IMG/VR virus record: IMGVR_UViG_2563366807_000007
Location: 1 to 23,490 of that record
Direction: 5' to 3' (one strand)
Source of the DNA: a virus
Taxonomy: Duplodnaviria > Heunggongvirae > Uroviricota > Caudoviricetes
Length of the DNA: 23,490 nt
Shown piece after piece: positions 804 to 23,490 of this stretch (position 1 is its first letter; every line of letters begins with the position of its first letter). Position numbers and translations under genes: made by a program. The notes under the pieces were generated by a model, which was not told where the DNA came from, did not search any database, and was given only the letters and a program-made list of their open reading frames with translations.

Positions 804-1553
804 TCACTGATCTCCTTCGGTCAACGGAGATTGTATTTTCCGCATTGATTCTCCTTTAAGTTCGATCTTGATACTGCCATGAACCAGTCGATCTAGGATG
901 GCATCCGCATGTGTGGAGTCTCCGATCATTTTGTACCAGTTTTCCACCGGCAACTGGCTCACTACGATGATTGAGCCTCGTTGGTACATCAGATCCACTA
1001 TTTCCAGCAGGTCGCTACGCTGTTCTGATGAGAGAGGTTCCAGCCCCCAGTCATCCAGAAGCAGCAGATCGCTATTATTCAGCCTGGTCAAAAGTTTGCT
1101 GTATCTTCCATCAGCATGCCCCTGATAGCACTGTTCCATCAGCGCTTTAAGGCGATAATAGTAGACCTTGTATCCCTGTCGGCAGGCATTATGACCAAGT
1201 GCACATGCCAGGAACGTTTTACCGCTGCCGGTGGCCCCGGTCAGTAAAATATTTTGTTTCAGGGTTAACCAGTTTCCCTGACTGAGTGAACGGATGAGGG
1301 CCCTGTCCAGCCCTCTATTGTTACGATAATCCAGCTTTGATAACTCAGCATTAAGTCTGAACCGTGCATGTTTGATCAGACGCTCTGCCTTCCTGTTTTC
1401 ACGGCAGGTTAGTTCTTCTGCTGTCAGTAATGACAGGCGTTCTTCGAAGCCCAGCTCCTGGTATGTGCCCGGTTGAGCAAGTTGCTTTTTAAGCGCATCA
1501 CGGAAGCCGGTGAGTTTAAGTGCGGTCAGTTGTTCGTAAAGATGATTCATCAT
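804..1553 (-). CDS. istB: IS21-family helper ATPase IstB
   Basis: 249 aa. Walker A LLTGATGSGKTF and Walker B LLLLDDWG, with the overall IstB/DnaC-like AAA+ layout. Lies immediately downstream of istA on the same strand. Confidence 0.9.
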   Translation of the reverse strand: MMNHLYEQLTALKLTGFRDALKKQLAQPGTYQELGFEERLSLLTAEELTCRENRKAERLIKHARFRLNAELSKLDYRNNRGLDRALIRSLSQGNWLTLKQNILLTGATGSGKTFLACALGHNACRQGYKVYYYRLKALMEQCYQGHADGRYSKLLTRLNNSDLLLLDDWGLEPLSSEQRSDLLEIVDLMYQRGSIIVVSQLPVENWYKMIGDSTHADAILDRLVHGSIKIELKGESMRKIQSPLTEGDQ

Positions 1554-1564
1554 TGGATCCCGTA

Positions 1565-3106
1565 TCAGTGGTAATACTCACTGCCGCGTACGTTTTCGTG
1601 TTCCATCGTGGATAACAGATCTGGTTTTGGATCCTGAACAGGTTGTTTATCCAGACCTTTTTCCAGGATCGATTTAATACCTGACAGACGCCATACCTTT
1701 GTTTTCAGAGCTCTTGCACATGCTGCATTAAGTCTGGCTTTACTGTATTTTTTATGAAGGTTCAGGAGTCCAAGGCAGAAGCGATAGCTTTGTTCCGGAT
1801 GTGGACGAGAGTTCAGTATATGAAGCACATAACTATGAGTTTCACTGCCTATGTGCCCCGCCCATTCCAGAAGACGCTCTGGCGTCCAGGTGGCATGCTG
1901 TCGATGAGCTTCAGGCATGTGCTCGTTGCGGGTACTGTAGCCATAAGTACGCTTGCGCGGGTGCACAGCAACCTCCTGCCCCTGATTGAAGAGTCTTACC
2001 AGTTCTCCGGAGATCCATGCTTCCAGTTGCTGGCCTAACAGCGAACATGGAACCGAGTAGTAATGTTTGTCGATTTCCACGTGGTAATCGGCATGAACTC
2101 TGACTTTCTTCACCAGGGTGTAACTGTAACTGGCTTCAGGAAGAGGCTTCAGTGCGGGTTTATCAAGCTGGATGAAGAGTTCTGCACGTGAATAACCCAA
2201 CTTCTGCATTATTTTGTTATTCAGTCTTTCCAGCAACTCCCGAATGCGCTGATTAAGCGATGCAAGGCTGTAGAAGATCTCATGCCTGATTCGGGCCATG
2301 ATCCAGCGTTCAACAACCTGAACGCCAACTTCAGCTTTGGCTTTATCTTTCGGTTTACGTGGCCGCGCAGGCAAAACTGCGACATTATAATGCTCAAGCA
2401 TCTGCTGGTAGGTAGGGTTAACGTCAGGATCATACTTACATGCCCTGGATGTGGCGCTTTTCAGATTGTCCGGAACAACAAGTTCAGGAACGCCACCCAA
2501 CCACTGGAAGCAGCGAACATGACTCATCACCCAGTCTTCAAGCTGCTGAGACCAGGTGGCCTCTGCCCATGTGTAACTTGATGCCCCGAGAACAGCTACG
2601 ATGACCTGAGCAGTTCTTATTTCTCCGGTCTCAGGGTCGGTAACGCCAACGGTAGGTCCACAGTAATCAACGAAAAGTTTTTCGCCAGCTTTATGTACCT
2701 GACGCATTGATGGTGAAGTGGTTTTGAGCCATTCACGGTACATCCGGCAGTAATGGTTATAGCTGTAAAAACCGCCTGGATTACGCTCACAGTATTCTTC
2801 CCAGAGTAGCTGCAGCGTCACGCATTTATTACGCAGTTCCCGGTGTACTGTAGCCCAGTCAGGCAGAGAGTGCTTCTTCATCTTAACCTGGGTCTGAAGG
2901 AACGCATGTTTTAGTTTTGTATCATCCCATCCTGTAGGTAAGGGCCACTGCTTTATGCCAAGTTGAGCCGCCCGATTAGCATATCTGGATACAACGGAAG
3001 GGGAGATTGCAAGACTACGACCAATTTGTCGATGGCTGAGTCCAACACCGTATTTAAGCCTAAGAATTTCTTTAAGTTTTCTCATAGAAATTGGAACTGT
3101 TGGCAT
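1565..3106 (-). CDS. istA: IS21-family transposase IstA
   Basis: 513 aa. N-terminal helix-turn-helix (LSHRQIGRSLAISPSVVSRYANRA) followed by a large integrase/DDE-type catalytic region. Gene order istA then istB is typical of the IS21 family. Confidence 0.9.
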   Translation of the reverse strand: MPTVPISMRKLKEILRLKYGVGLSHRQIGRSLAISPSVVSRYANRAAQLGIKQWPLPTGWDDTKLKHAFLQTQVKMKKHSLPDWATVHRELRNKCVTLQLLWEEYCERNPGGFYSYNHYCRMYREWLKTTSPSMRQVHKAGEKLFVDYCGPTVGVTDPETGEIRTAQVIVAVLGASSYTWAEATWSQQLEDWVMSHVRCFQWLGGVPELVVPDNLKSATSRACKYDPDVNPTYQQMLEHYNVAVLPARPRKPKDKAKAEVGVQVVERWIMARIRHEIFYSLASLNQRIRELLERLNNKIMQKLGYSRAELFIQLDKPALKPLPEASYSYTLVKKVRVHADYHVEIDKHYYSVPCSLLGQQLEAWISGELVRLFNQGQEVAVHPRKRTYGYSTRNEHMPEAHRQHATWTPERLLEWAGHIGSETHSYVLHILNSRPHPEQSYRFCLGLLNLHKKYSKARLNAACARALKTKVWRLSGIKSILEKGLDKQPVQDPKPDLLSTMEHENVRGSEYYH

Positions 3107-3647: not shown

Positions 3648-4181
3648 ATGAACACCAAAATCAAATACGGCCTGTCGGCTGCCGTTCTGGCGCTGATTGC
3701 CGCTGGTGCGCCTGCGCCTGACATTCTCGACCAGTTTCTGGATGAAAAGGAAGGCAACCACACCACGGCATACCGTGATGGTGCAGGTATCTGGACCATC
3801 TGCCGTGGTGCCATCATGGTGGATGGCAAACCTGTCGTTCCGGGCATGAAGTTGTCGAAGGAAAAATGCGACCAGGTTAACGCCATTGAGCGTGATAAAG
3901 CGCTGGCGTGGGTGGAGAAAAACATCAGAGTGCCGCTGACCGAACCCCAGAAAGCGGGGATCGCGTCATTCTGTCCGTACAACATTGGTCCCGGTAAGTG
4001 TTTCCCGTCGACGTTTTACAGACGAATTAATGCTGGTGATCGAAAAGGTGCCTGCGAAGCGATTCGCTGGTGGATTAAGGACGGTGGCAGAGACTGCCGT
4101 ATTCGTTCAAACAACTGTTACGGTCAGGTATCCCGTCGTGACCAGGAGAGCGCGCTGGCGTGCTGGGGTATCGACAGATAA
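3648..4181 (+). CDS. R: SAR endolysin (phage lysozyme, T4/P21 R-type, glycoside hydrolase family 24)
   Basis: 177 aa. N-terminal Gly/Ala-rich weakly hydrophobic signal-anchor-release segment (GLSAAVLALIAAGAPAP). Catalytic spacing E35-8aa-D44-5aa-T50 (EGNHTTAYRDGAGIWT), as in phage 21 R and E. coli prophage RrrD/RrrQ lysozymes. Confidence 0.9.
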   Translation: MNTKIKYGLSAAVLALIAAGAPAPDILDQFLDEKEGNHTTAYRDGAGIWTICRGAIMVDGKPVVPGMKLSKEKCDQVNAIERDKALAWVEKNIRVPLTEPQKAGIASFCPYNIGPGKCFPSTFYRRINAGDRKGACEAIRWWIKDGGRDCRIRSNNCYGQVSRRDQESALACWGIDR

Positions 4182-4534: not shown

Positions 4535-4666
4535 ATGTCAGACAAACTCATAACGCTGGCGAAGATCCTCTGTGTAATTGTCGGCATTTCATTTTCACTA
4601 ATGCTGGTTGCTCTTTTTCTTTCCATGGCCTGGATGATGTTGTCTTCGTCGGGGTTGCTGGGGTGA
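4535..4666 (+). CDS. Small hydrophobic protein (43 aa), unknown function
   Basis: Strong RBS AAGGGAGGA 7 nt upstream of ATG 4535. Sequence [43 protein letters not shown] is almost entirely transmembrane. Its stop TGA (4664-4666) overlaps the possible GTG start of Rz. Confidence 0.4.
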
Positions 4667-5136
4667 ACATAAACCGAATGCTTTCCGCGTTTATCGTTAT
4701 TCTGCTGGTGGCCTGTGGTGCGCTGTGGATGGCAACAGACCATTACCGTGATAACGCGATTACCTACAAAGCGCAGCGCGATAACAAAGCCAGTGAACTG
4801 AAGCTGGCGAACGCAACCATTACTGATATGCAGGTGCGCCAGCGCGATGTTGCTGCGCTCGATGCAAAATACTCGAGGGAATTAGCCGATGCGAGAGCTG
4901 AAAATGAAACTCTTCGCGCTGACGTTGCCGCTGGTCGTAAGCGCCTGCGGATCAACGCCACCTGTCCAGGCTCCGTGCGTGAAGCCCCCACCACCTCCGG
5001 CGTGGATAATGCAACCGGCCCCCAACTGGCAGACACCGTTACACGGGATTATTTCACCCTCAGAGAGCGGCTGATGACGATGCACAAGCAACTGGAAGGG
5101 GCACAGGACTATATCCGCACTCAGTGCCTGAAATAA
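4663..5136 (+). CDS. Rz: Rz i-spanin (inner-membrane spanin subunit)
   Basis: N-terminal TM segment then [44 protein letters not shown] and a C-terminal [18 protein letters not shown] region, matching lambda Rz as I recall it. Start is either GTG 4663 or ATG 4678. Confidence 0.9.
4889..5074 (+). CDS. Rz1: Rz1 o-spanin (outer-membrane lipoprotein), embedded in the +1 frame of Rz
   Basis: Lipoprotein signal with lipobox LVVSAC, followed by the proline-rich stretch [22 protein letters not shown], nearly identical to lambda Rz1. Lies wholly within Rz in a different frame; an alternative start is ATG 4904. Confidence 0.8.
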
Positions 5137-5446
5137 GTTTTGTTGATGCGCCGTATCGTCGCTATATTCCCTCATTAACAGAGACCGCAGCCCGACAGGG
5201 AGACTCCTCTGCGCGAGTGTGCGGGGATAATTAAAAACGATGCACACCGGGTTTTTACCGCGTTAATGATTCGCGGGTTTATCCCGGTGCGATGGTGGAA
5301 GAAACAGGAAGCTGTATTACAGAAAGTGCTACTACTGTATCCCGATGCGATGTATGTAATGTGAGTCAGATAATGGCACAGGATGTGGTGATGTGGCAGT
5401 CTGGAACACAGGATATATTGTCAGAATAAGACCCGTAGGAATAAAA

Positions 5447-5773
5447 ATGAAAAGACGCCTTTTACTACTTTTTCTGTTATCTGTCCTGGCAGTGGGATGC
5501 TCGCAGCAAAAAGCTGATGAGCCCCGGCAATTAGTGACGGTGTATCCACGATATCCGGAATATGCTGCAGCAAATTATATCAAGGGGCTGGTTGAGGTTA
5601 AGTTCGATATTGGTGCTGATGGGACTGTGACACGGATCGTTTTTCTCCGCTCAGAGCCTCATAATTTGTTTCGTGATGAAGTGGTGAAGGCCATGGCGAA
5701 ATGGCGATTTGAAAAGAATCGCCCCTGTCAGGGAGTGAAGAGACAATTTATCTTTACGCCGTCACGTCCTTGA
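5447..5773 (+). CDS. Lipoprotein with a TonB C-terminal-like domain (moron)
   Basis: 108 aa. Signal peptide MKRRLLLLFLLSVLAVGC with lipobox AVGC and Ser at +2. The remainder (YPEYAAANYIKGLVEVKFDIGADGTVTRIVFLRSEPHNLFRDEVVKAMAKWRFEKNRP) aligns motif by motif with the E. coli TonB C-terminal domain ([11 protein letters not shown]..DGRV....[24 protein letters not shown]). Confidence 0.7.
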   Translation: MKRRLLLLFLLSVLAVGCSQQKADEPRQLVTVYPRYPEYAAANYIKGLVEVKFDIGADGTVTRIVFLRSEPHNLFRDEVVKAMAKWRFEKNRPCQGVKRQFIFTPSRP

Positions 5774-12742: not shown

Positions 12743-12750
12743 CACGTTAT

Positions 12751-12770
12751 CAGGCCACCATGGTGGCCTG
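12751..12770. repeat. Perfect 20-nt palindrome CAGGCCACCATGGTGGCCTG in the D-E intergenic region
   Basis: Read directly: 8-bp stem with a 4-nt loop. Followed by ACTGATTTCTGAATG before the E RBS. Confidence 0.5.
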
Positions 12771-12799
12771 ACTGATTTCTGAATGAAAGGAACTGATTT

Positions 12800-13828
12800 A
12801 TGGGATTGTTTACGACCCGCCAGTTACTCGGTTATACCGAACAAAAAGTTAAATTCCGTGCGCTATTTCTGGAGCTGTTTTTCCGCCGTACGGTGAATTT
12901 CCACACCGAAGAGGTGATGCTGGACAAAATTACCGGAAAAACGCCGGTGGCGGCCTATGTCTCCCCGATCGTTGAAGGAAAAGTGCTGCGCCATCGTGGT
13001 GGTGAAACCCGCGTGTTGCGTCCGGGCTACGTCAAGCCGAAACACGAATTTAATTACCAGCAGGCGGTTGAGCGCCTTCCTGGTGAAGATCCATCTCAAC
13101 TGAATGATCCGGCTTACCGCCGTCTGCGTATCATTACCGATAACCTCAAACAGGAAGAGCACGCCATTGTCCAGGTGGAAGAAATGCAGGCGGTAAATGC
13201 TGTGTTGTATGGCAAATACACCATGGAAGGAGACCAGTTCGAGAAAATTGAGGTCGATTTTGGCAGGTCGACGAAGAATAACATCACTCAGGGTAGTGGT
13301 AAGGAGTGGTCAAAACAGGATCGTGACACGTTCGATCCTACACATGATATTGACCTCTACTGCGACCAGGCCAGCGGTCTTGTGAATATTGCCATTATGG
13401 ACGGTACCGGCTGGCGTCTTCTGAATGGTTTTAAGCTGTTCCGCGAAAAACTGGATACCCGTCGCGGTTCAAATTCTCAACTCGAAACGGCAGTGAAAGA
13501 TCTGGGCGCAGTGGTGTCCTTCAAGGGGTATTACGGCGATCTGGCCATTGTGGTGGCGAAAACGTCTTATATAGCAGAAGACGGTATCGAAAAACGTTAT
13601 CTTCCAGATGGCATGCTGGTTCTGGGGAATACTGCTGCAGATGGGATCCGTTGTTACGGTGCCATTCAGGATGCTCAGGCGTTGTCCGAAGGTGTGGTGG
13701 CCTCTTCCCGTTATCCGAAACACTGGCTGACGGTAGGGGATCCCGCCCGTGAATTTACCATGACGCAGTCCGCGCCGCTGATGGTGTTGCCGGACCCGGA
13801 TGAGTTTGTGGTGGTACAGGTGAAATAA
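12800..13828 (+). CDS. E: Major capsid protein (lambda gpE-like)
   Basis: 342 aa. Collinear high identity to lambda gpE (YVSPIV.G.V.R.RGG, PGYVKPKHE, IVQVEEMQAV.AVL.GKYTM, KLDTRRGSNS.LETAVKDLG, TGDPAREFTM.QSAPLM). Confidence 0.95.
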   Translation: MGLFTTRQLLGYTEQKVKFRALFLELFFRRTVNFHTEEVMLDKITGKTPVAAYVSPIVEGKVLRHRGGETRVLRPGYVKPKHEFNYQQAVERLPGEDPSQLNDPAYRRLRIITDNLKQEEHAIVQVEEMQAVNAVLYGKYTMEGDQFEKIEVDFGRSTKNNITQGSGKEWSKQDRDTFDPTHDIDLYCDQASGLVNIAIMDGTGWRLLNGFKLFREKLDTRRGSNSQLETAVKDLGAVVSFKGYYGDLAIVVAKTSYIAEDGIEKRYLPDGMLVLGNTAADGIRCYGAIQDAQALSEGVVASSRYPKHWLTVGDPAREFTMTQSAPLMVLPDPDEFVVVQVK

Positions 13829-13836
13829 TCCGTGAG

Positions 13837-13866
13837 CGGGGGCGAAATGCCCCCGTGTCTTTTTTC
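13837..13866 (+). terminator. Intrinsic (rho-independent) terminator downstream of the major capsid gene
   Basis: 7-bp GC stem CGGGGGC/GCCCCCG with loop GAAAT, followed by TGTCTTTTTTC. Lies between the E stop (13828) and the FI start (13880). Confidence 0.6.
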
Positions 13867-20764: not shown

Positions 20765-21508
20765 ATGACACAGACTGAATCAGCGATTCTGGCACATGCC
20801 CGGCGGTGTGCGCCTGCGGAGTCGTGCGGCTTCGTGATAAGCACGCCGGAGGGGGAGTGGTATATCCCTTGTGTGAATATTTCCGCGGAGCCGGAGGCGT
20901 ATTTTCGTATCGCACCGGAAGACTGGCTGCGGGCAGAGATGCAGGGGGAGATTGTGGCACTGGTCCACAGTCATCCCGGTGGGCTGCCCTGGCTGAGCGA
21001 GGCTGACCGGCGGCTGCAGATAAAAAGCGCACTGCCCTGGTGGCTGGTCTGCCGGGGTGACATTCACAAATTCCGCTGTGTGCCACATCTGACAGGACGG
21101 CGCTTTGAGCACGGGGTGACGGACTGTTACACGCTGTTCCGGGATGCTTATCATCTGGCGGGGACTGAAATGCCGGATTTTCATCGCGAGGATGACTGGT
21201 GGCGCAACGGCCAGAACCTTTACCTGGACAATATGGCGGTCACCGGCTTTTACCGGGTGCCCCTGTCCTCTGCACAGGCGGGCGATATTCTGCTGTGCTG
21301 CTTTGGTGCTTCGGTACCGAACCATGCCGCCATTTACTGCGGTAACGGTGAGCTGCTTCACCATCTGCCTGAACAACTGAGTAAACGGGAGAGGTATTCC
21401 GAAAAATGGCAACGACGAACGCATTCTGTCTGGCGTCACCGCCACTGGCACGCATCTGCCTTCACGGGGATTTACAACGATTTGGCCGCCGCCTCAGCCT
21501 GTATGTGA
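20765..21508 (+). CDS. K: Tail tip assembly protein (lambda gpK-like; MPN/JAB plus NlpC/P60-type peptidase domains)
   Basis: Start MTQTESAILAHARRCAPAESCGFV is identical to the lambda gpK N-terminus. HSHP (JAB) and DCYTL/H (NlpC/P60) motifs are present. The track ORF from 20504 over-extends. Confidence 0.9.
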   Translation: MTQTESAILAHARRCAPAESCGFVISTPEGEWYIPCVNISAEPEAYFRIAPEDWLRAEMQGEIVALVHSHPGGLPWLSEADRRLQIKSALPWWLVCRGDIHKFRCVPHLTGRRFEHGVTDCYTLFRDAYHLAGTEMPDFHREDDWWRNGQNLYLDNMAVTGFYRVPLSSAQAGDILLCCFGASVPNHAAIYCGNGELLHHLPEQLSKRERYSEKWQRRTHSVWRHRHWHASAFTGIYNDLAAASACM

Positions 21509-22086
21509 ACACGGCAGCGGAAGCCATTCGCGCCCTGTCGATGCAGATGCCGGGCTTTCGCCGTCAGATGAACGAAGGCTGGTACCAGATACGTATTGCC
21601 GGTGATGACACGGCACCGGAGGCGGTGTACGCCCGTCTTCACGAACAGCTGGGTGAGGGAACGGTCATCCACATTGTGCCGCGACTGGCCGGGGCCGGAA
21701 AGGGTGGACTGCAGATTGTGCTGGGGGCGGCAGCCATCGTGGGCTCTTTCTTCACGGCCGGTGCCTCGATGGCGTTATGGGGTACAGCCCTGAGTGCCGG
21801 CGGTTTTTCTGCCACCACAATGCTGTTTTCACTGGGTGCCAGCATGATACTGGGCGGTGTGGCCCAGATGCTGGCCCCGAAGGCAAAAACACCGGATTAC
21901 CGCGCAACGGATAACGGCAGACAGAACACGTACTTTTCCTCGCTGGATAACATGATTGCCCAGGGGAACCCGATGCCGGTGCCTTACGGGGAAATGCTGG
22001 TTGGCTCCCGCCGTATATCCCAGGACATCAGCACCCGTGATGAAGGCGGGGGCGGAAAGGTCGTGGTTATCGGGCGGCAGGGGTAA
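21406..22086 (+). CDS. I: Tail tip assembly protein (lambda gpI-like)
   Basis: ARICL.GDLQRFGRR, GWYQ.RIAG, IVLGAAAI.GSFFTAGA, LFSLGASM.LGGVAQMLAPKA.TP and NTYFSSLDNM.AQGN match lambda gpI. Confidence 0.9.
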   Translation: MATTNAFCLASPPLARICLHGDLQRFGRRLSLYVNTAAEAIRALSMQMPGFRRQMNEGWYQIRIAGDDTAPEAVYARLHEQLGEGTVIHIVPRLAGAGKGGLQIVLGAAAIVGSFFTAGASMALWGTALSAGGFSATTMLFSLGASMILGGVAQMLAPKAKTPDYRATDNGRQNTYFSSLDNMIAQGNPMPVPYGEMLVGSRRISQDISTRDEGGGGKVVVIGRQG

Positions 22087-22093
22087 AAAGAAT

Positions 22094-22190
22094 AAAAAAA
22101 TCCCGCAGTGATCGCGGACAGGAACTGCGGGAGAGTTACGAAGATTAAGTGTAAGGAATTATTCTTATATCACGACAAAAAAATTAACGC
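22094..22190 (-). ncRNA. Candidate small RNA (about 95 nt) in the I-J intergenic insert, bounded by a near-consensus promoter and an intrinsic terminator
   Basis: On the minus strand: -35 TTCACA (22224-22219), 16-bp spacer, -10 TATAAT (22202-22197). A terminator hairpin (22132-22101) and U-tract (22100-22094) lie about 95 nt downstream of the predicted start. The interval has no ATG with an RBS. Confidence 0.35.
22101..22132 (-). terminator. Intrinsic terminator for minus-strand transcription
   Basis: 9-bp stem TCCCGCAGT/ACTGCGGGA with a 14-nt loop. On the minus strand it is followed by UUUUUUUAUUCUUUUU (plus-strand AAAAAGAATAAAAAAA at about 22085-22100). Confidence 0.5.
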
Positions 22191-22196
22191 AGAGAA

Positions 22197-22224
22197 ATTA
22201 TACGCGCCACAGTCAGTTTGTGAA
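22197..22224 (-). promoter_or_regulatory. Near-consensus sigma70 promoter on the minus strand (TTCACA, 16-bp spacer, TATAAT)
   Basis: Read directly from the reverse complement: TTCACAAACTGACTGTGGCGCGTATAAT. Confidence 0.45.
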
Positions 22225-22296
22225 AATGTGAAGATATTCAGAATTTTTATGCCATTACCGGTTTTAACCAACAGGATTATCGGTGGGCATGAAAGA

Positions 22297-22328
22297 AAAC
22301 CCCGGTATCTGCTGATACCGGGGTTTCT
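22297..22328. terminator. Bidirectional intrinsic terminator-like hairpin (13-bp stem AAACCCCGGTATC/GATACCGGGGTTT, loop TGCT)
   Basis: Perfect inverted repeat with a GC-rich core, A-rich upstream (GAAAGAAAA) and T-rich downstream (TTTCTCTTT), so it has a U-tract in both orientations. Lies between the candidate promoter and the J start. Confidence 0.5.
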
Positions 22329-22429
22329 CTTTAGCATGGCAGAAATGTGTTTCATGCTTTTCGGGCGAAGGATATCCGACTTCTGTACGGAATGGCAAGT
22401 GGCGGTTAATTTATTCAGGGGAAGGCTGT

Positions 22430-23490
22430 ATGGGAAAAGGTGGCGGTAAGGCACACACGCCTCGTGAGGCGAAGGATAATCTCAAATCCACGCAGATGAT
22501 GAGCGTGATTGATGCGATTGGTGAGGGACCGATAGAAGGTCCGGTGAAGGGACTGCAGAGTATTCTGGTGAACAAAACCCCACTGACGGACACGGACGGC
22601 AATCCCGTGATACACGGTGTGACGGCGGTCTGGCGCGCCGGGGAGCAGGAGCAGACACCACCGGAAGGCTTTGAGTCCTCCGGAGCTGAAACCGGACTGG
22701 GCGTGGAAGTGACGAAGGCAAAACCGGTGACGCGCACCATTACGTCCGCGAACATTGACCGCCTGCGGGTTACCTTCGGGGTGCAGTCACTGGTGCAGAC
22801 CACGTCAAAGGGCGACCGTAATCCTTCCTCTGTCCGGATTCTGATTCAGTTACAGCGTAATGGCCGCTGGGTGACGGAAAAGGATGTCACCATTAACGGC
22901 AAGACCACCTCGCAGTTCCTGGCCTCGGTGATTCTGGATAATCTGCCTCCCCGGCCCTTTAACATCCGGATGGTCAGGGAGACGGCGGACAGCACCACGG
23001 ACCAGCTGCAGAATAAGACGCTGTGGTCGTCATACACCGAAATCATCGATGTGAAACAGTGCTACCCGAACACGGCCATTGTGGGGCTGCAGGTGGATGC
23101 GGAGCAGTTCGGCGGCCAGCAGATGACGGTGAACTACCATATCCGCGGTCGCATCATCCAGGTGCCGTCAAACTATGACCCGGAAAAACGCACGTACAGT
23201 GGTATCTGGGACGGCAGTCTGAAACCGGCATACAGCAACAACCCGGCCTGGTGCCTGTGGGACATGCTGACTCACCCGCGCTACGGCATGGGAAAACGTC
23301 TGGGGGCGGCGGATGTGGACAAGTGGGCGCTGTATGCCATCGGGCAGTACTGCGACCAGACGGTCCCGGATGGTTTCGGGGGGACCGAGCCGCGGATGAC
23401 CTTTAATGCGTACCTGGCACAACAGCGTAAGGCGTGGGACGTTCTCAGTGATTTCTGCTCTGCGATGCGCTGTATGCCGGTATGGAACGG
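22430..23490 (+). CDS. J: Central tail fiber / host specificity protein (lambda gpJ-like), N-terminal part (3' end lies outside the window)
   Basis: ATG 22430 with RBS AGGGGAAGG. Translation MGKGGGKAHTPREAKDNLKSTQMMSVIDAIGEGPIEGPV...QCYPNTAIVGLQVDAEQFGGQQ...WDMLTHPRYGMGKRLGAADVDKWALY is collinear with the lambda gpJ N-terminus. The frame stays open to the window end. Confidence 0.9.
   Translation, partial: MGKGGGKAHTPREAKDNLKSTQMMSVIDAIGEGPIEGPVKGLQSILVNKTPLTDTDGNPVIHGVTAVWRAGEQEQTPPEGFESSGAETGLGVEVTKAKPVTRTITSANIDRLRVTFGVQSLVQTTSKGDRNPSSVRILIQLQRNGRWVTEKDVTINGKTTSQFLASVILDNLPPRPFNIRMVRETADSTTDQLQNKTLWSSYTEIIDVKQCYPNTAIVGLQVDAEQFGGQQMTVNYHIRGRIIQVPSNYDPEKRTYSGIWDGSLKPAYSNNPAWCLWDMLTHPRYGMGKRLGAADVDKWALYAIGQYCDQTVPDGFGGTEPRMTFNAYLAQQRKAWDVLSDFCSAMRCMPVWN

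What the first reader, a model, noticed from the sequence alone, without database searches (positions are those of the whole stretch)
22087..22429. Insert of about 340 bp between tail genes I and J carrying a candidate prophage small RNA
In lambda, I and J are essentially adjacent. Here about 340 bp of AT-rich DNA separates them. It holds a near-consensus sigma70 promoter on the minus strand (TTCACA-16-TATAAT, 22224-22197) aimed at a strong intrinsic terminator (stem 22101-22132 plus U-tract), defining a roughly 95-nt non-coding transcript antisense to the late operon. A second, bidirectional hairpin (22297-22328) shields it from the J side. This is the architecture of a stand-alone sRNA gene. 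Prophage-encoded sRNAs are known in E. coli lambdoid prophages, but I cannot match this one to a named example from the sequence alone.
Basis: partly seen in the sequence, partly recalled or inferred. Interest (0 to 1): 0.65.

Follow-up and report, generated by a model that had tools for sequence, protein, structure and literature searches.

The report
PasB-family prophage small RNA gene

Summary
The I-J gap is 343 bp (60 bp in lambda) and 42% G+C against about 60% in the flanking genes. It holds the best sigma-70 match in 20 kb (TTCACA-16-TATAAT, minus strand, 22224-22197). That promoter faces an intrinsic terminator (stem 22131-22102, U7 22100-22094).

The unit is homologous to PasB. PasB is an 83-nt RNA of EPEC E2348/69 that was confirmed by Northern blot, depends on Hfq, and lies in the same I-J gap on the same strand. 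The window allele shares 65 of 83 bases with it (E 1e-8). Promoter plus RNA is 80% identical (E 4e-31).

Three Hfq-bound peaks in EHEC Sakai (EcOnc22/23/24; about 85 nt, destabilised without Hfq) also fall in I-J gaps that carry alleles of this family.

The window allele is 100% identical in CFT073 and ATCC 25922. It is unannotated there and absent from Rfam. The published PasB survey would have missed it, because its BLAST used word size 28 and the longest shared word is 25.

The best reading is an Hfq-dependent trans-acting sRNA made in the lysogen. It is a new member of a known kind, of low to moderate interest. The right-hand 180 bp, with its -27 kcal/mol hairpin, remains unexplained.

The parts
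22094..22190 (-). Predicted PasB-family sRNA. The primary transcript would be 97 nt from the promoter-predicted +1 (G at 22190) to the last U of the terminator tail (22094). The published PasB 5' end aligns to 22177, which would give 84 nt.
   Evidence: It aligns to the validated 83-nt PasB of E2348/69 with 65 of 83 identical and blastn E 1e-8, the only significant hit in the window. The 3' end matches PasB exactly.
22197..22224 (-). Sigma-70 promoter: -35 TTCACA (22224-22219), 16-nt spacer, -10 TATAAT (22202-22197).
   Evidence: It scores 11 of 12 and is the best match in 20 kb. It is conserved in most alleles of the family. Some Stx-phage alleles have a weaker -35, and the sodC-type loci lack the promoter altogether.
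22225..22250 (-). A/T-rich region upstream of the -35. It contains a second TTCACA and TGAA-N4-TTCA. It could be an UP element or a regulator site.
   Evidence: It is shared between the long and short gap types out to about -65 from the start site, while the sequence beyond it differs. Its function is inferred only.
22158..22166 (-). AAG AAU AAU, three A-R-N triplets. This is a candidate site for the distal face of Hfq.
   Evidence: A run of at least 3 ARN triplets sits at this position in 51 of 55 distinct RNA bodies. Dinucleotide shuffles give a mean longest run of 1.7, and for the window allele 1.3% of shuffles reach 3. Binding is inferred.
22140..22157 (-). Candidate single-stranded pairing region UCCUUACACUUAAUCUUC. 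UCCUU is anti-Shine-Dalgarno-like, and UUAAUCUUC is the most conserved block of the body.
   Evidence: ATCTT is invariant in the BLAST-derived set, which was not selected by pattern. The consensus fold leaves this stretch unpaired. Zhu et al. place the PasB seed just upstream of the terminator.
22094..22131 (-). Intrinsic terminator: stem CCCGCAG/CTGCGGG with a variable loop, followed by U7.
   Evidence: See (-15.7 kcal/mol, z = -4.1). The stem never varies in the family, so there is no covariation signal.
22292..22332 (.). Strong hairpin (AAAACCCCGGUAUC-UGCU-GAUACCGGGGUUU) with U-rich runs after it on both strands. It looks like a bidirectional terminator.
   Evidence: It folds at -27.1 and -27.2 kcal/mol, z = -5.2 and -7.6. 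Its function is not shown.
22245..22425 (.). Right-hand module of the 'long' gap type. It is unannotated and nearly invariant. It includes a weak minus-strand promoter-like site, TTGCCA-18-TATCCT, at 22398-22369.
   Evidence: It is at least 99% identical in 1442 of 1451 E. coli records, while the sRNA body differs by up to about 25%. The promoter-like site scores 9 of 12.
21505..22086 (+). Tail assembly gene I (left flank).
   Evidence: Pfam Lambda_tail_I, E 1.8e-16. RefSeq annotates the identical CFT073 DNA as a tail assembly protein.
22430..23490 (+). 5' part of tail tip gene J (right flank). It runs off the end of the window.
   Evidence: Pfam FNIII-A_GpJ, E 1.7e-41. RefSeq annotates it as gpJ in CFT073.

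Best explanation
The left 160 bp of the gap (about 22094-22250) is a moron, an extra gene carried in a phage genome. It encodes a divergent allele of the PasB / EcOnc22-24 family of prophage small RNAs.

In the lysogen, host sigma-70 RNA polymerase starts near 22190 and reads against the silent late operon. It stops at the intrinsic terminator 8 nt from the stop codon of I. The product is a non-coding RNA of 84-97 nt.

The RNA is held and stabilised by Hfq through its terminator hairpin and U7 tail, and probably also through the internal AAGAAUAAU (ARN)3 stretch. It uses the unstructured stretch UCCUU...UUAAUCUUC to pair in trans with host and accessory-genome mRNAs and change their translation or stability.

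What is shown here: homology, position, strand, promoter and terminator. What is shown by others, for sister alleles only: the RNA exists, it depends on Hfq, and it has many mRNA partners. What is inferred: that this allele is expressed, the pairing region, the role of the ARN stretch, and the direction of regulation.
For: The position and strand match PasB, which lies in the I-J gap of E2348/69 PP6 on the minus strand.

The PasB RNA aligns to 22166-22094 with E 1e-8. Promoter plus RNA aligns to 22246-22094 at 80% identity, E 4e-31. The 3' end and the terminator stem are identical to PasB. The Northern probe for PasB matches the window at 21 of its 23 bases.

PasB gave a Northern band of the predicted size. 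It is lost in an hfq deletion strain: log2 fold change -6.8 and -2.4 in what I take to be the two conditions of the hfq-deletion versus wild-type comparison, although I did not read that table's legend. It has 37 unique RIL-seq partners, 30 of them CDS or 5'UTR. It is the second RNA in 99-100% of its chimeras, and it has a U-tract of 7.

The EHEC peaks EcOnc22/23/24 lie in the I-J gaps of Sp15, Sp14 and Sp11, on the strand antisense to the late genes. EcOnc22 is about 85 nt on a Northern blot and is destabilised without Hfq. Those gaps carry a family allele that is 70% identical to the window unit, E 5e-17.

The promoter is the best in 20 kb and is conserved across alleles. The ARN run is enriched over shuffles. 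The O157 allele, which differs from PasB by one base, sits in the same long gap type as the window.
Against: No expression data were found for this exact allele. Its sequence strings occur in no searchable paper. The one CFT073 Ribo-seq/RNA-seq preprint found could not be read.

The body is only 78% identical to PasB and has indels, so its targets may differ.

The published 5' end lies 13 nt downstream of the promoter-predicted start. That end was set from read coverage and band size, not by 5' mapping.

There is no Rfam family for it and no base-pair covariation. The only consensus helix is the invariant terminator.

No target of any PasB allele has been validated, and PasB showed no common target motif in RIL-seq.
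Confidence: 0.8

Rival explanations
1. The RNA acts mainly in cis. It is fully complementary to the I-J spacer of the late polycistronic mRNA. It would pair with that spacer when late transcription leaks or begins, triggering cleavage or blocking J expression, so that it serves the phage rather than the host regulon.
For: The RNA overlaps the late transcript over its whole length and ends 8 nt from the stop codon of I. The gene is always found in this one position, across many tail-gene alleles. Convergent transcription with the late operon is built into the arrangement.
Against: In E2348/69, PasB chimeras are overwhelmingly with RNAs encoded elsewhere. The accessory-genome share of its partners is 0.5-2%, and the RNA is abundant in ordinary lysogen culture. 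In sodC-type loci the same body is kept as the 3' end of a different gene, with no promoter of its own. That does not fit a dedicated antisense role. Nothing here tests the effect on J.
Confidence: 0.1
2. In this allele the unit is a relic or a plain transcription punctuation mark. The hairpins would be terminators or insulators left by moron traffic in the I-J slot, and the promoter match would give no stable, functional RNA.
For: The I-J gap is clearly a cargo slot. It occurs as a short type, a long type and a sodC-bearing type. The body differs from PasB at 18 of 83 positions. No structure beyond the terminator is conserved.
Against: The promoter is near consensus and better conserved than the body. 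This allele was the commonest in the sampled set, with 16 of 142 instances. 634 complete E. coli records match the whole queried interval at 99% identity or more. Decay would not keep the -35, the -10, the spacing, the seed block and the U7 tail all intact. Three sister alleles are expressed.
Confidence: 0.07
3. The conserved block encodes a small protein on the plus strand, (M/T)KI(N/K)xKELF..., translated from the late mRNA between I and J.
For: About half of the alleles (31 of 68) have an ATG preceded by a GGAG-like sequence. Differences between alleles in this stretch fall mostly on third codon positions. One phage record annotates a 32-aa ORF here.
Against: The window allele and half of the others have ACG or ACA instead of ATG. 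Some have a 4-nt deletion or a stop at codon 7. ORF length ranges from 6 to more than 44 aa, because the A-run shifts the frame. There is no Pfam match. RefSeq calls no gene here in the rows inspected. The period-3 pattern is explained equally well by A-R-N triplets on the sRNA strand.
Confidence: 0.02

Closest known systems
PasB of EPEC O127:H6 E2348/69, prophage PP6 (Pearl Mizrahi et al. 2021, PMC8550237; Zhu, Shabalina and Storz 2026 preprint)
   Same: It has the same gap between tail genes I and J, the same strand, the same promoter architecture, an identical terminator stem and U7 tail, and the same conserved AUCUUC block.
   Different: The RNA shares 65 of 83 bases with PasB, with indels in the 5' part and in the terminator loop. 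The E2348/69 gap is 240 bp and lacks the right-hand module. This allele has not been tested by experiment.
PasB-2, the O157:H7-type allele with one change at position 27 of PasB
   Same: It has the same long gap type, 342 bp, with the right-hand module 100% identical to the window.
   Different: Its RNA body is the PasB type, not the window type (82 of 83 against 65 of 83 identical to PasB).
EcOnc22 / EcOnc23 / EcOnc24 of EHEC O157:H7 Sakai prophages Sp15, Sp14 and Sp11 (Tree et al. 2014, PMC4104026, Table S2)
   Same: These Hfq-CRAC peaks lie in I-J gaps, antisense to the late genes. EcOnc22 is about 85 nt and is destabilised without Hfq. The gaps hold a family allele with the same terminator and AUCUUC block.
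   Different: Identity to the window unit is about 70%. The gap is the short type and the -35 is weaker. The published coordinates are for NC_002695.1. Their placement on the RNA body rests on an offset of about +140 that I measured at AgvB1. With any offset from 0 to +140 the peaks stay inside the gap.
Anti-sRNAs AgvB and AsxR (Rfam RF02702, RF02703)
   Same: They are prophage-encoded, Hfq-dependent, short RNAs with a conserved 3' part and a variable 5' part, made in the lysogen.
   Different: They lie at the moron site downstream of Q and PR', not in the tail region. They are 51-60 nt. There is no sequence or covariance-model match.
sodC moron in the I-J gap of some E. coli prophages
   Same: It occupies the same cargo slot, and the same RNA body and terminator lie next to I.
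   Different: There the PasB promoter is replaced by sodC on the same strand, so the body becomes the 3' end of the sodC transcript.

Membership tests
PasB / EcOnc22-24 prophage sRNA family | The gene lies between tail assembly gene I and tip gene J of a lambdoid prophage, on the strand opposite the late operon. | tested here: met
   Pfam assigns I and J. The arrangement is the same in E2348/69, in CFT073 and in Sakai Sp11, Sp14 and Sp15.
PasB / EcOnc22-24 prophage sRNA family | Sequence homology to the validated 83-nt PasB. | tested here: met
   65 of 83 bases are identical. blastn gives E 1e-8, the only significant hit in 23.5 kb. Promoter plus RNA is 80% identical, E 4e-31. Homology is clear but the allele is divergent.
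PasB / EcOnc22-24 prophage sRNA family | Its own promoter 70-100 nt upstream of the terminator. | tested here: met
   TTCACA-16-TATAAT scores 11 of 12, is the best match in 20 kb, and is conserved across alleles.
PasB / EcOnc22-24 prophage sRNA family | [quoted passage not shown] | tested here: met
   The stem is identical to that of PasB and is followed by U7. RIL-seq lists a U-tract of 7 for PasB.
PasB / EcOnc22-24 prophage sRNA family | A discrete RNA of about 83-85 nt whose level depends on Hfq. | not testable with these tools
   This is shown for PasB and EcOnc22 only. No data were found for the window allele.
PasB / EcOnc22-24 prophage sRNA family | Hfq-mediated pairing with many mRNAs. 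| not testable with these tools
   PasB has 37 RIL-seq partners in E2348/69. None has been validated, and the window allele was not assayed.
Anti-sRNAs AgvB / AsxR | A match to the Rfam models, a position downstream of Q and PR', and a length of 51-60 nt. | tested here: not met
   No Rfam match reaches gathering score anywhere in the window, and none to these families appears at E up to 10 in the gap. The position is in the tail module. The predicted length is 84-97 nt.
Class II Hfq sRNAs (U-tail on the proximal face plus an ARN motif on the distal face) | An internal run of A-R-N triplets in addition to the U-tailed terminator. | tested here: inconclusive
   AAGAAUAAU is present. At least 3 triplets occur at this position in 51 of 55 alleles, against a mean of 1.7 in shuffles. 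The sequence is A/U-rich and no binding data exist.

The most novel reading that the evidence does not exclude
The I-J gap may be a modular RNA slot holding more than one element.

First, the sRNA body is exchanged in blocks between prophages. I found 69 distinct alleles in 142 instances, with mix-and-match promoter, body, loop and flank types. Different alleles, including this ExPEC one, could therefore have different seeds and regulons.

Second, the 180-bp right-hand module is almost invariant and carries a -27 kcal/mol two-way hairpin. It is present in about 27% of complete E. coli genomes and annotated nowhere. It could be a second functional RNA element. One possibility is a minus-strand RNA of about 70 nt running from TTGCCA-18-TATCCT into the hairpin. 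Another is a terminator or attenuator that gates J expression to antiterminated transcription only.
Probability: 0.12. Interest if true: 0.5.

Novelty: new member of a known kind. Interest (0 to 1): 0.25.

Why it matters
It adds little that is new in kind. Prophage sRNAs that plug into the host Hfq network are established, and this family has been seen twice by experiment.

Three modest points come out of this work.

First, PasB of EPEC and EcOnc22-24 of EHEC are the same family at the same tail-gene position. Neither the PasB paper's table nor the 2026 survey states this link.

Second, the family is wider than the published survey suggests. That survey's settings (word size 28, query cover above 75%) miss the window allele and the Stx-phage alleles. 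Yet DNA matching the window's I-J interval occurs in 1662 of 5426 complete E. coli genomes, and 634 records match it at 99% identity or more, including standard ExPEC and laboratory strains such as CFT073, S88 and ATCC 25922.

Third, those strains are convenient places to test what the RNA does.

Tried and rejected
Rfam. At gathering thresholds over the whole window there was nothing. In the gap at E up to 10 there were only weak hits driven by the hairpins, all far below their gathering scores.

Covariation. The RNAalifold consensus of 55 distinct bodies keeps only the terminator stem, and that stem never varies. There is therefore no structural evidence either way. My collection pattern also forced the stem and the ATCTT block, so their conservation in that set is partly by construction. 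The BLAST-derived set is free of that bias.

Coding. I examined ORFs on both strands of the gap. None is conserved in start, frame or length, and none has a Pfam match.

AgvB/AsxR identity. I rejected this on position, size and the lack of a model match.

Literature search by sequence string found nothing.

The CFT073 small-protein preprint with RNA-seq could not be opened.

I did not extract the list of PasB RIL-seq partners. The table runs to 40 parts and look-ups were limited.

Probe or primer sequences for EcOnc22 were not found in the supplement. Placing the CRAC peaks on the RNA body therefore depends on a coordinate offset measured at AgvB1.

I looked for a long-type gap in Sakai, in the chromosomal stretches holding Sp9, Sp13 and Sp14. 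I found none, so EHEC CRAC data could not be used to test the right-hand module.

Matches in Parendozoicomonas, Streptomyces and a Clostridiales MAG are short contigs of E. coli prophage DNA, which means contamination and not spread of the family. One further pattern match, in a rumen Clostridia MAG, is unrelated.

Full report
**1. The observation.**
The window's I homologue ends at 22086 and its J homologue starts at 22430. Both assignments come from Pfam (Lambda_tail_I, FNIII-A_GpJ) and from the RefSeq annotation of identical DNA in CFT073. The gap, 22087-22429, is 343 bp. The lambda I-J gap is 60 bp. G+C is 0.42 in the gap and 0.35 in its left half, against 0.61 and 0.59 in I and J.

On the minus strand, TTCACA-16-TATAAT at 22224-22197 scores 11 of 12. 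It is the best sigma-70-type match in 20 kb, a stretch that is otherwise depleted of such sites (8 found, 12.3 expected).

Downstream on the same strand lies a terminator. Its arms are at 22131-22125 and 22108-22102, and seven U follow at 22100-22094. It folds at -15.7 kcal/mol, z = -4.1.

A second hairpin at about 22292-22332 folds at about -27 kcal/mol on either strand, with U-rich runs on both sides.

**2. What it is.**
Rfam has no family for it. The interval is common: 1662 of 5426 complete E. coli genomes match it. It is 100% identical in CFT073, S88, ATCC 25922 and many others, and nothing is annotated in the gap in the rows inspected.

The literature gave the name. Pearl Mizrahi et al. 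2021 (PMC8550237, Table S6) list PasB at NC_011601.1, minus strand, 1466343-1466261. It is 83 nt, lies in prophage PP6, and was probed with AATCCCGCAGTGATCGCGGAGCT. Those coordinates lie between the tail assembly gene and gpJ of E2348/69.

The window aligns to that locus across the promoter, the RNA body and the terminator. The identity figures are as follows.
- 65 of 83 bases of the RNA are identical.
- The longest shared exact word is 25 nt.
- blastn of the 83-mer against the whole window gives one significant hit, 22166-22094, E 1e-8.
- Promoter plus RNA gives 80% identity over 22246-22094, E 4e-31.

By alignment, the published 3' end of PasB is window 22094 and its 5' end is window 22177. 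The promoter predicts a start near 22190. The published ends were set from read coverage and band size, so the 13-nt difference is open.

**3. A second, earlier sighting.**
Tree et al. 2014 (PMC4104026, Table S2) list three homologous Hfq-CRAC peaks on the plus strand of Sakai.
- EcOnc22 is in Sp15. It is about 85 nt on a Northern blot and is destabilised in an hfq deletion strain.
- EcOnc23 is in Sp14.
- EcOnc24 is in Sp11.

In NC_002695.2 these three prophages lie on the minus strand. Their I-J gaps are identical 240-bp sequences at 2902691-2902930, 2676622-2676861 and 2166672-2166911. Each holds a unit of this family, 70% identical to the window unit (E 5e-17).

The paper used NC_002695.1. 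At AgvB1 the offset to version 2 is about +140. With any offset from 0 to +140 the peaks remain inside the gaps. With about +128 to +140 they fall on the RNA body, up to the terminator. This step is an inference from one calibration point. Sp9 also carries a family copy.

The PasB table notes no EHEC homologue for PasB. The 2026 survey does not mention EcOnc.

**4. The family.**
I gathered 16 loci by BLAST and about 120 more by a pattern scan of IMG/VR and GTDB genomes. This gave 142 instances and 69 distinct alleles, one of which (v26) is an unrelated pattern match. The window allele was the commonest, with 16 instances.

The shared features are listed below.
- The promoter.
- A GCGUUA start followed by a U run.
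- A run of A-R-N triplets.
- UCCUU.
- UUAAUCUUC(G/A)U.
- The terminator stem CCCGCAG/CTGCGGG with a variable loop.
- A U6-8 tail.

Blocks recombine freely, so promoter type, body type, loop type and flank type occur in many combinations.

The consensus fold contains only the terminator, and the terminator never varies. Structure therefore gives no independent support.

A/R/N triplet runs of at least 3 occur at one position in 51 of 55 bodies. Shuffles give a mean of 1.7, and for the window allele 1.3% of shuffles reach its value. This fits an Hfq distal-face site but is not proof.

**5. Gap types.**
There are three types.
- Short gaps are 235-255 bp and include E2348/69 and Sakai. They have a hairpin CAGGCAyCC...GGrTGCCTG followed by TTGTTTTT on the plus strand only, with compensatory C:G to T:A changes.
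- Long gaps are 337-343 bp and include the window, CFT073 and many O157:H7 strains. They carry the right-hand module.
- sodC-type gaps are 851 bp. There sodC on the minus strand replaces the PasB promoter, with the junction at the PasB start site, so the body becomes the 3' end of sodC.

The right-hand module (22245-22425) is at least 99% identical in 1442 of 1451 records. It is 100% identical in four loci whose sRNA bodies differ by up to about 25%. Because it does not vary, comparison says nothing about what it does.

**6. How it most likely works.**
The evidence for sister alleles is as follows.
- PasB is abundant, more so in the non-activating condition.
- It drops strongly in the hfq deletion strain.
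- It is the second RNA in 99-100% of its RIL-seq chimeras.
- It has 37 partners, 30 of them CDS or 5'UTR, almost all encoded in the core genome.

I therefore read the window unit as an Hfq-dependent, trans-acting sRNA transcribed in the lysogen from its own promoter. The unpaired UCCUU...UUAAUCUUC stretch would be the pairing region.

A cis-antisense effect on the I-J junction of the late mRNA is possible in addition, but nothing supports it as the main role.

**7. Rival: a small protein on the plus strand.**
About half of the alleles read ATG-AAG-AT. on the plus strand after a GGAG-like sequence, and variation there has period 3. The window allele has ACG. Other alleles have ACA, a 4-nt deletion or an early stop. 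ORF length runs from 6 to more than 44 aa, because the A-run shifts the frame. The same period-3 positions are the N positions of the ARN triplets on the sRNA strand. I rate coding as unlikely.

**8. Novelty.**
The kind and the family are known. The allele is not described in anything I could search.

The 2026 survey used word size 28 and query cover above 75%. In a direct re-run, the PasB query does not find the window at word size 28, and it covers only 30% of the query at word size 11. So this allele, common in ExPEC and reference strains, was outside that survey.

The verdict is a new member of a known kind. The unexplained part is the invariant right-hand module with its strong two-way hairpin.

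Noticed in passing
L011 796-1646 (E. coli Z1323CEC0013, NZ_CP148427.1); also alleles v06, v08, v11, v28, v53 and v62 in the IMG/VR set: Some prophages carry sodC on the minus strand in the I-J gap. The junction with the PasB-type body is at the sRNA start site. The sRNA promoter is gone, and the body with its terminator forms the 3' end of sodC, so it could be a 3'UTR-derived sRNA.
   Followed up: partly
window 22245-22425: The right-hand 180 bp of the gap is at least 99% identical in 1442 of 1451 E. coli records, while the adjacent sRNA body varies by up to about 25%. It holds a -27 kcal/mol two-way hairpin (22292-22332). A weak minus-strand promoter-like site (TTGCCA-18-TATCCT, 22398-22369) is aimed at that hairpin. 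No annotation and no function are known.
   Followed up: partly
L002 about 1925-1965 and the matching positions in L006-L010 and L012-L015: Short-type I-J gaps have a different hairpin (CAGGCAyCC...GGrTGCCTG) followed by TTGTTTTT on the plus strand only, with compensatory changes between loci. It looks like a terminator in the direction of the late operon, just upstream of J.
   Followed up: partly
window 22108-22160 plus strand; alleles listed: The plus strand opposite the sRNA seed reads (M/T)KI(N/K)xKELF. About half of the alleles have an ATG and a GGAG-like sequence, and the window has ACG. Length and frame are not conserved. The period-3 variation coincides with the ARN triplets of the sRNA strand.
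   Followed up: yes
L143-L149 (NC_002695.2, E. coli O157:H7 Sakai): Sakai carries at least four copies of the family, in Sp9, Sp11, Sp14 and Sp15. Coordinates in Tree et al. 2014 (NC_002695.1) are offset by about +140 nt from NC_002695.2 at AgvB1.
   Followed up: partly
L017 (Parendozoicomonas haliclonae), L020 (Streptomyces flavalbus), L021 (Clostridiales MAG): Short contigs in these assemblies are 81-100% identical to this E. coli prophage tail region. This is most likely contamination or mis-binning, not real spread of the element.
   Followed up: yes
window 804-3106 minus strand: An IS21-family element sits just upstream of the lysis genes. It has an istB-like ATPase (804-1553) and a transposase with rve and Mu-transposase C-terminal domains (1565-3106). 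The lysis genes are the lysozyme at 3648-4181 and Rz at 4663-5136.
   Followed up: no
window 5393-5773 plus strand; 5601-5574 minus strand: An ORF with a TonB C-terminal domain lies between Rz and the terminase small subunit, which is a likely moron position. A minus-strand promoter-like site (TTAACC-16-TATAAT with an upstream TG, 10 of 12) lies inside it.
   Followed up: no
window 12750-12771 and 13836-13856 plus strand: G+C-rich hairpins with T runs flank the major capsid gene (12800-13828, Pfam Phage_cap_E). They could be stabilisers or partial terminators within the late operon.
   Followed up: no
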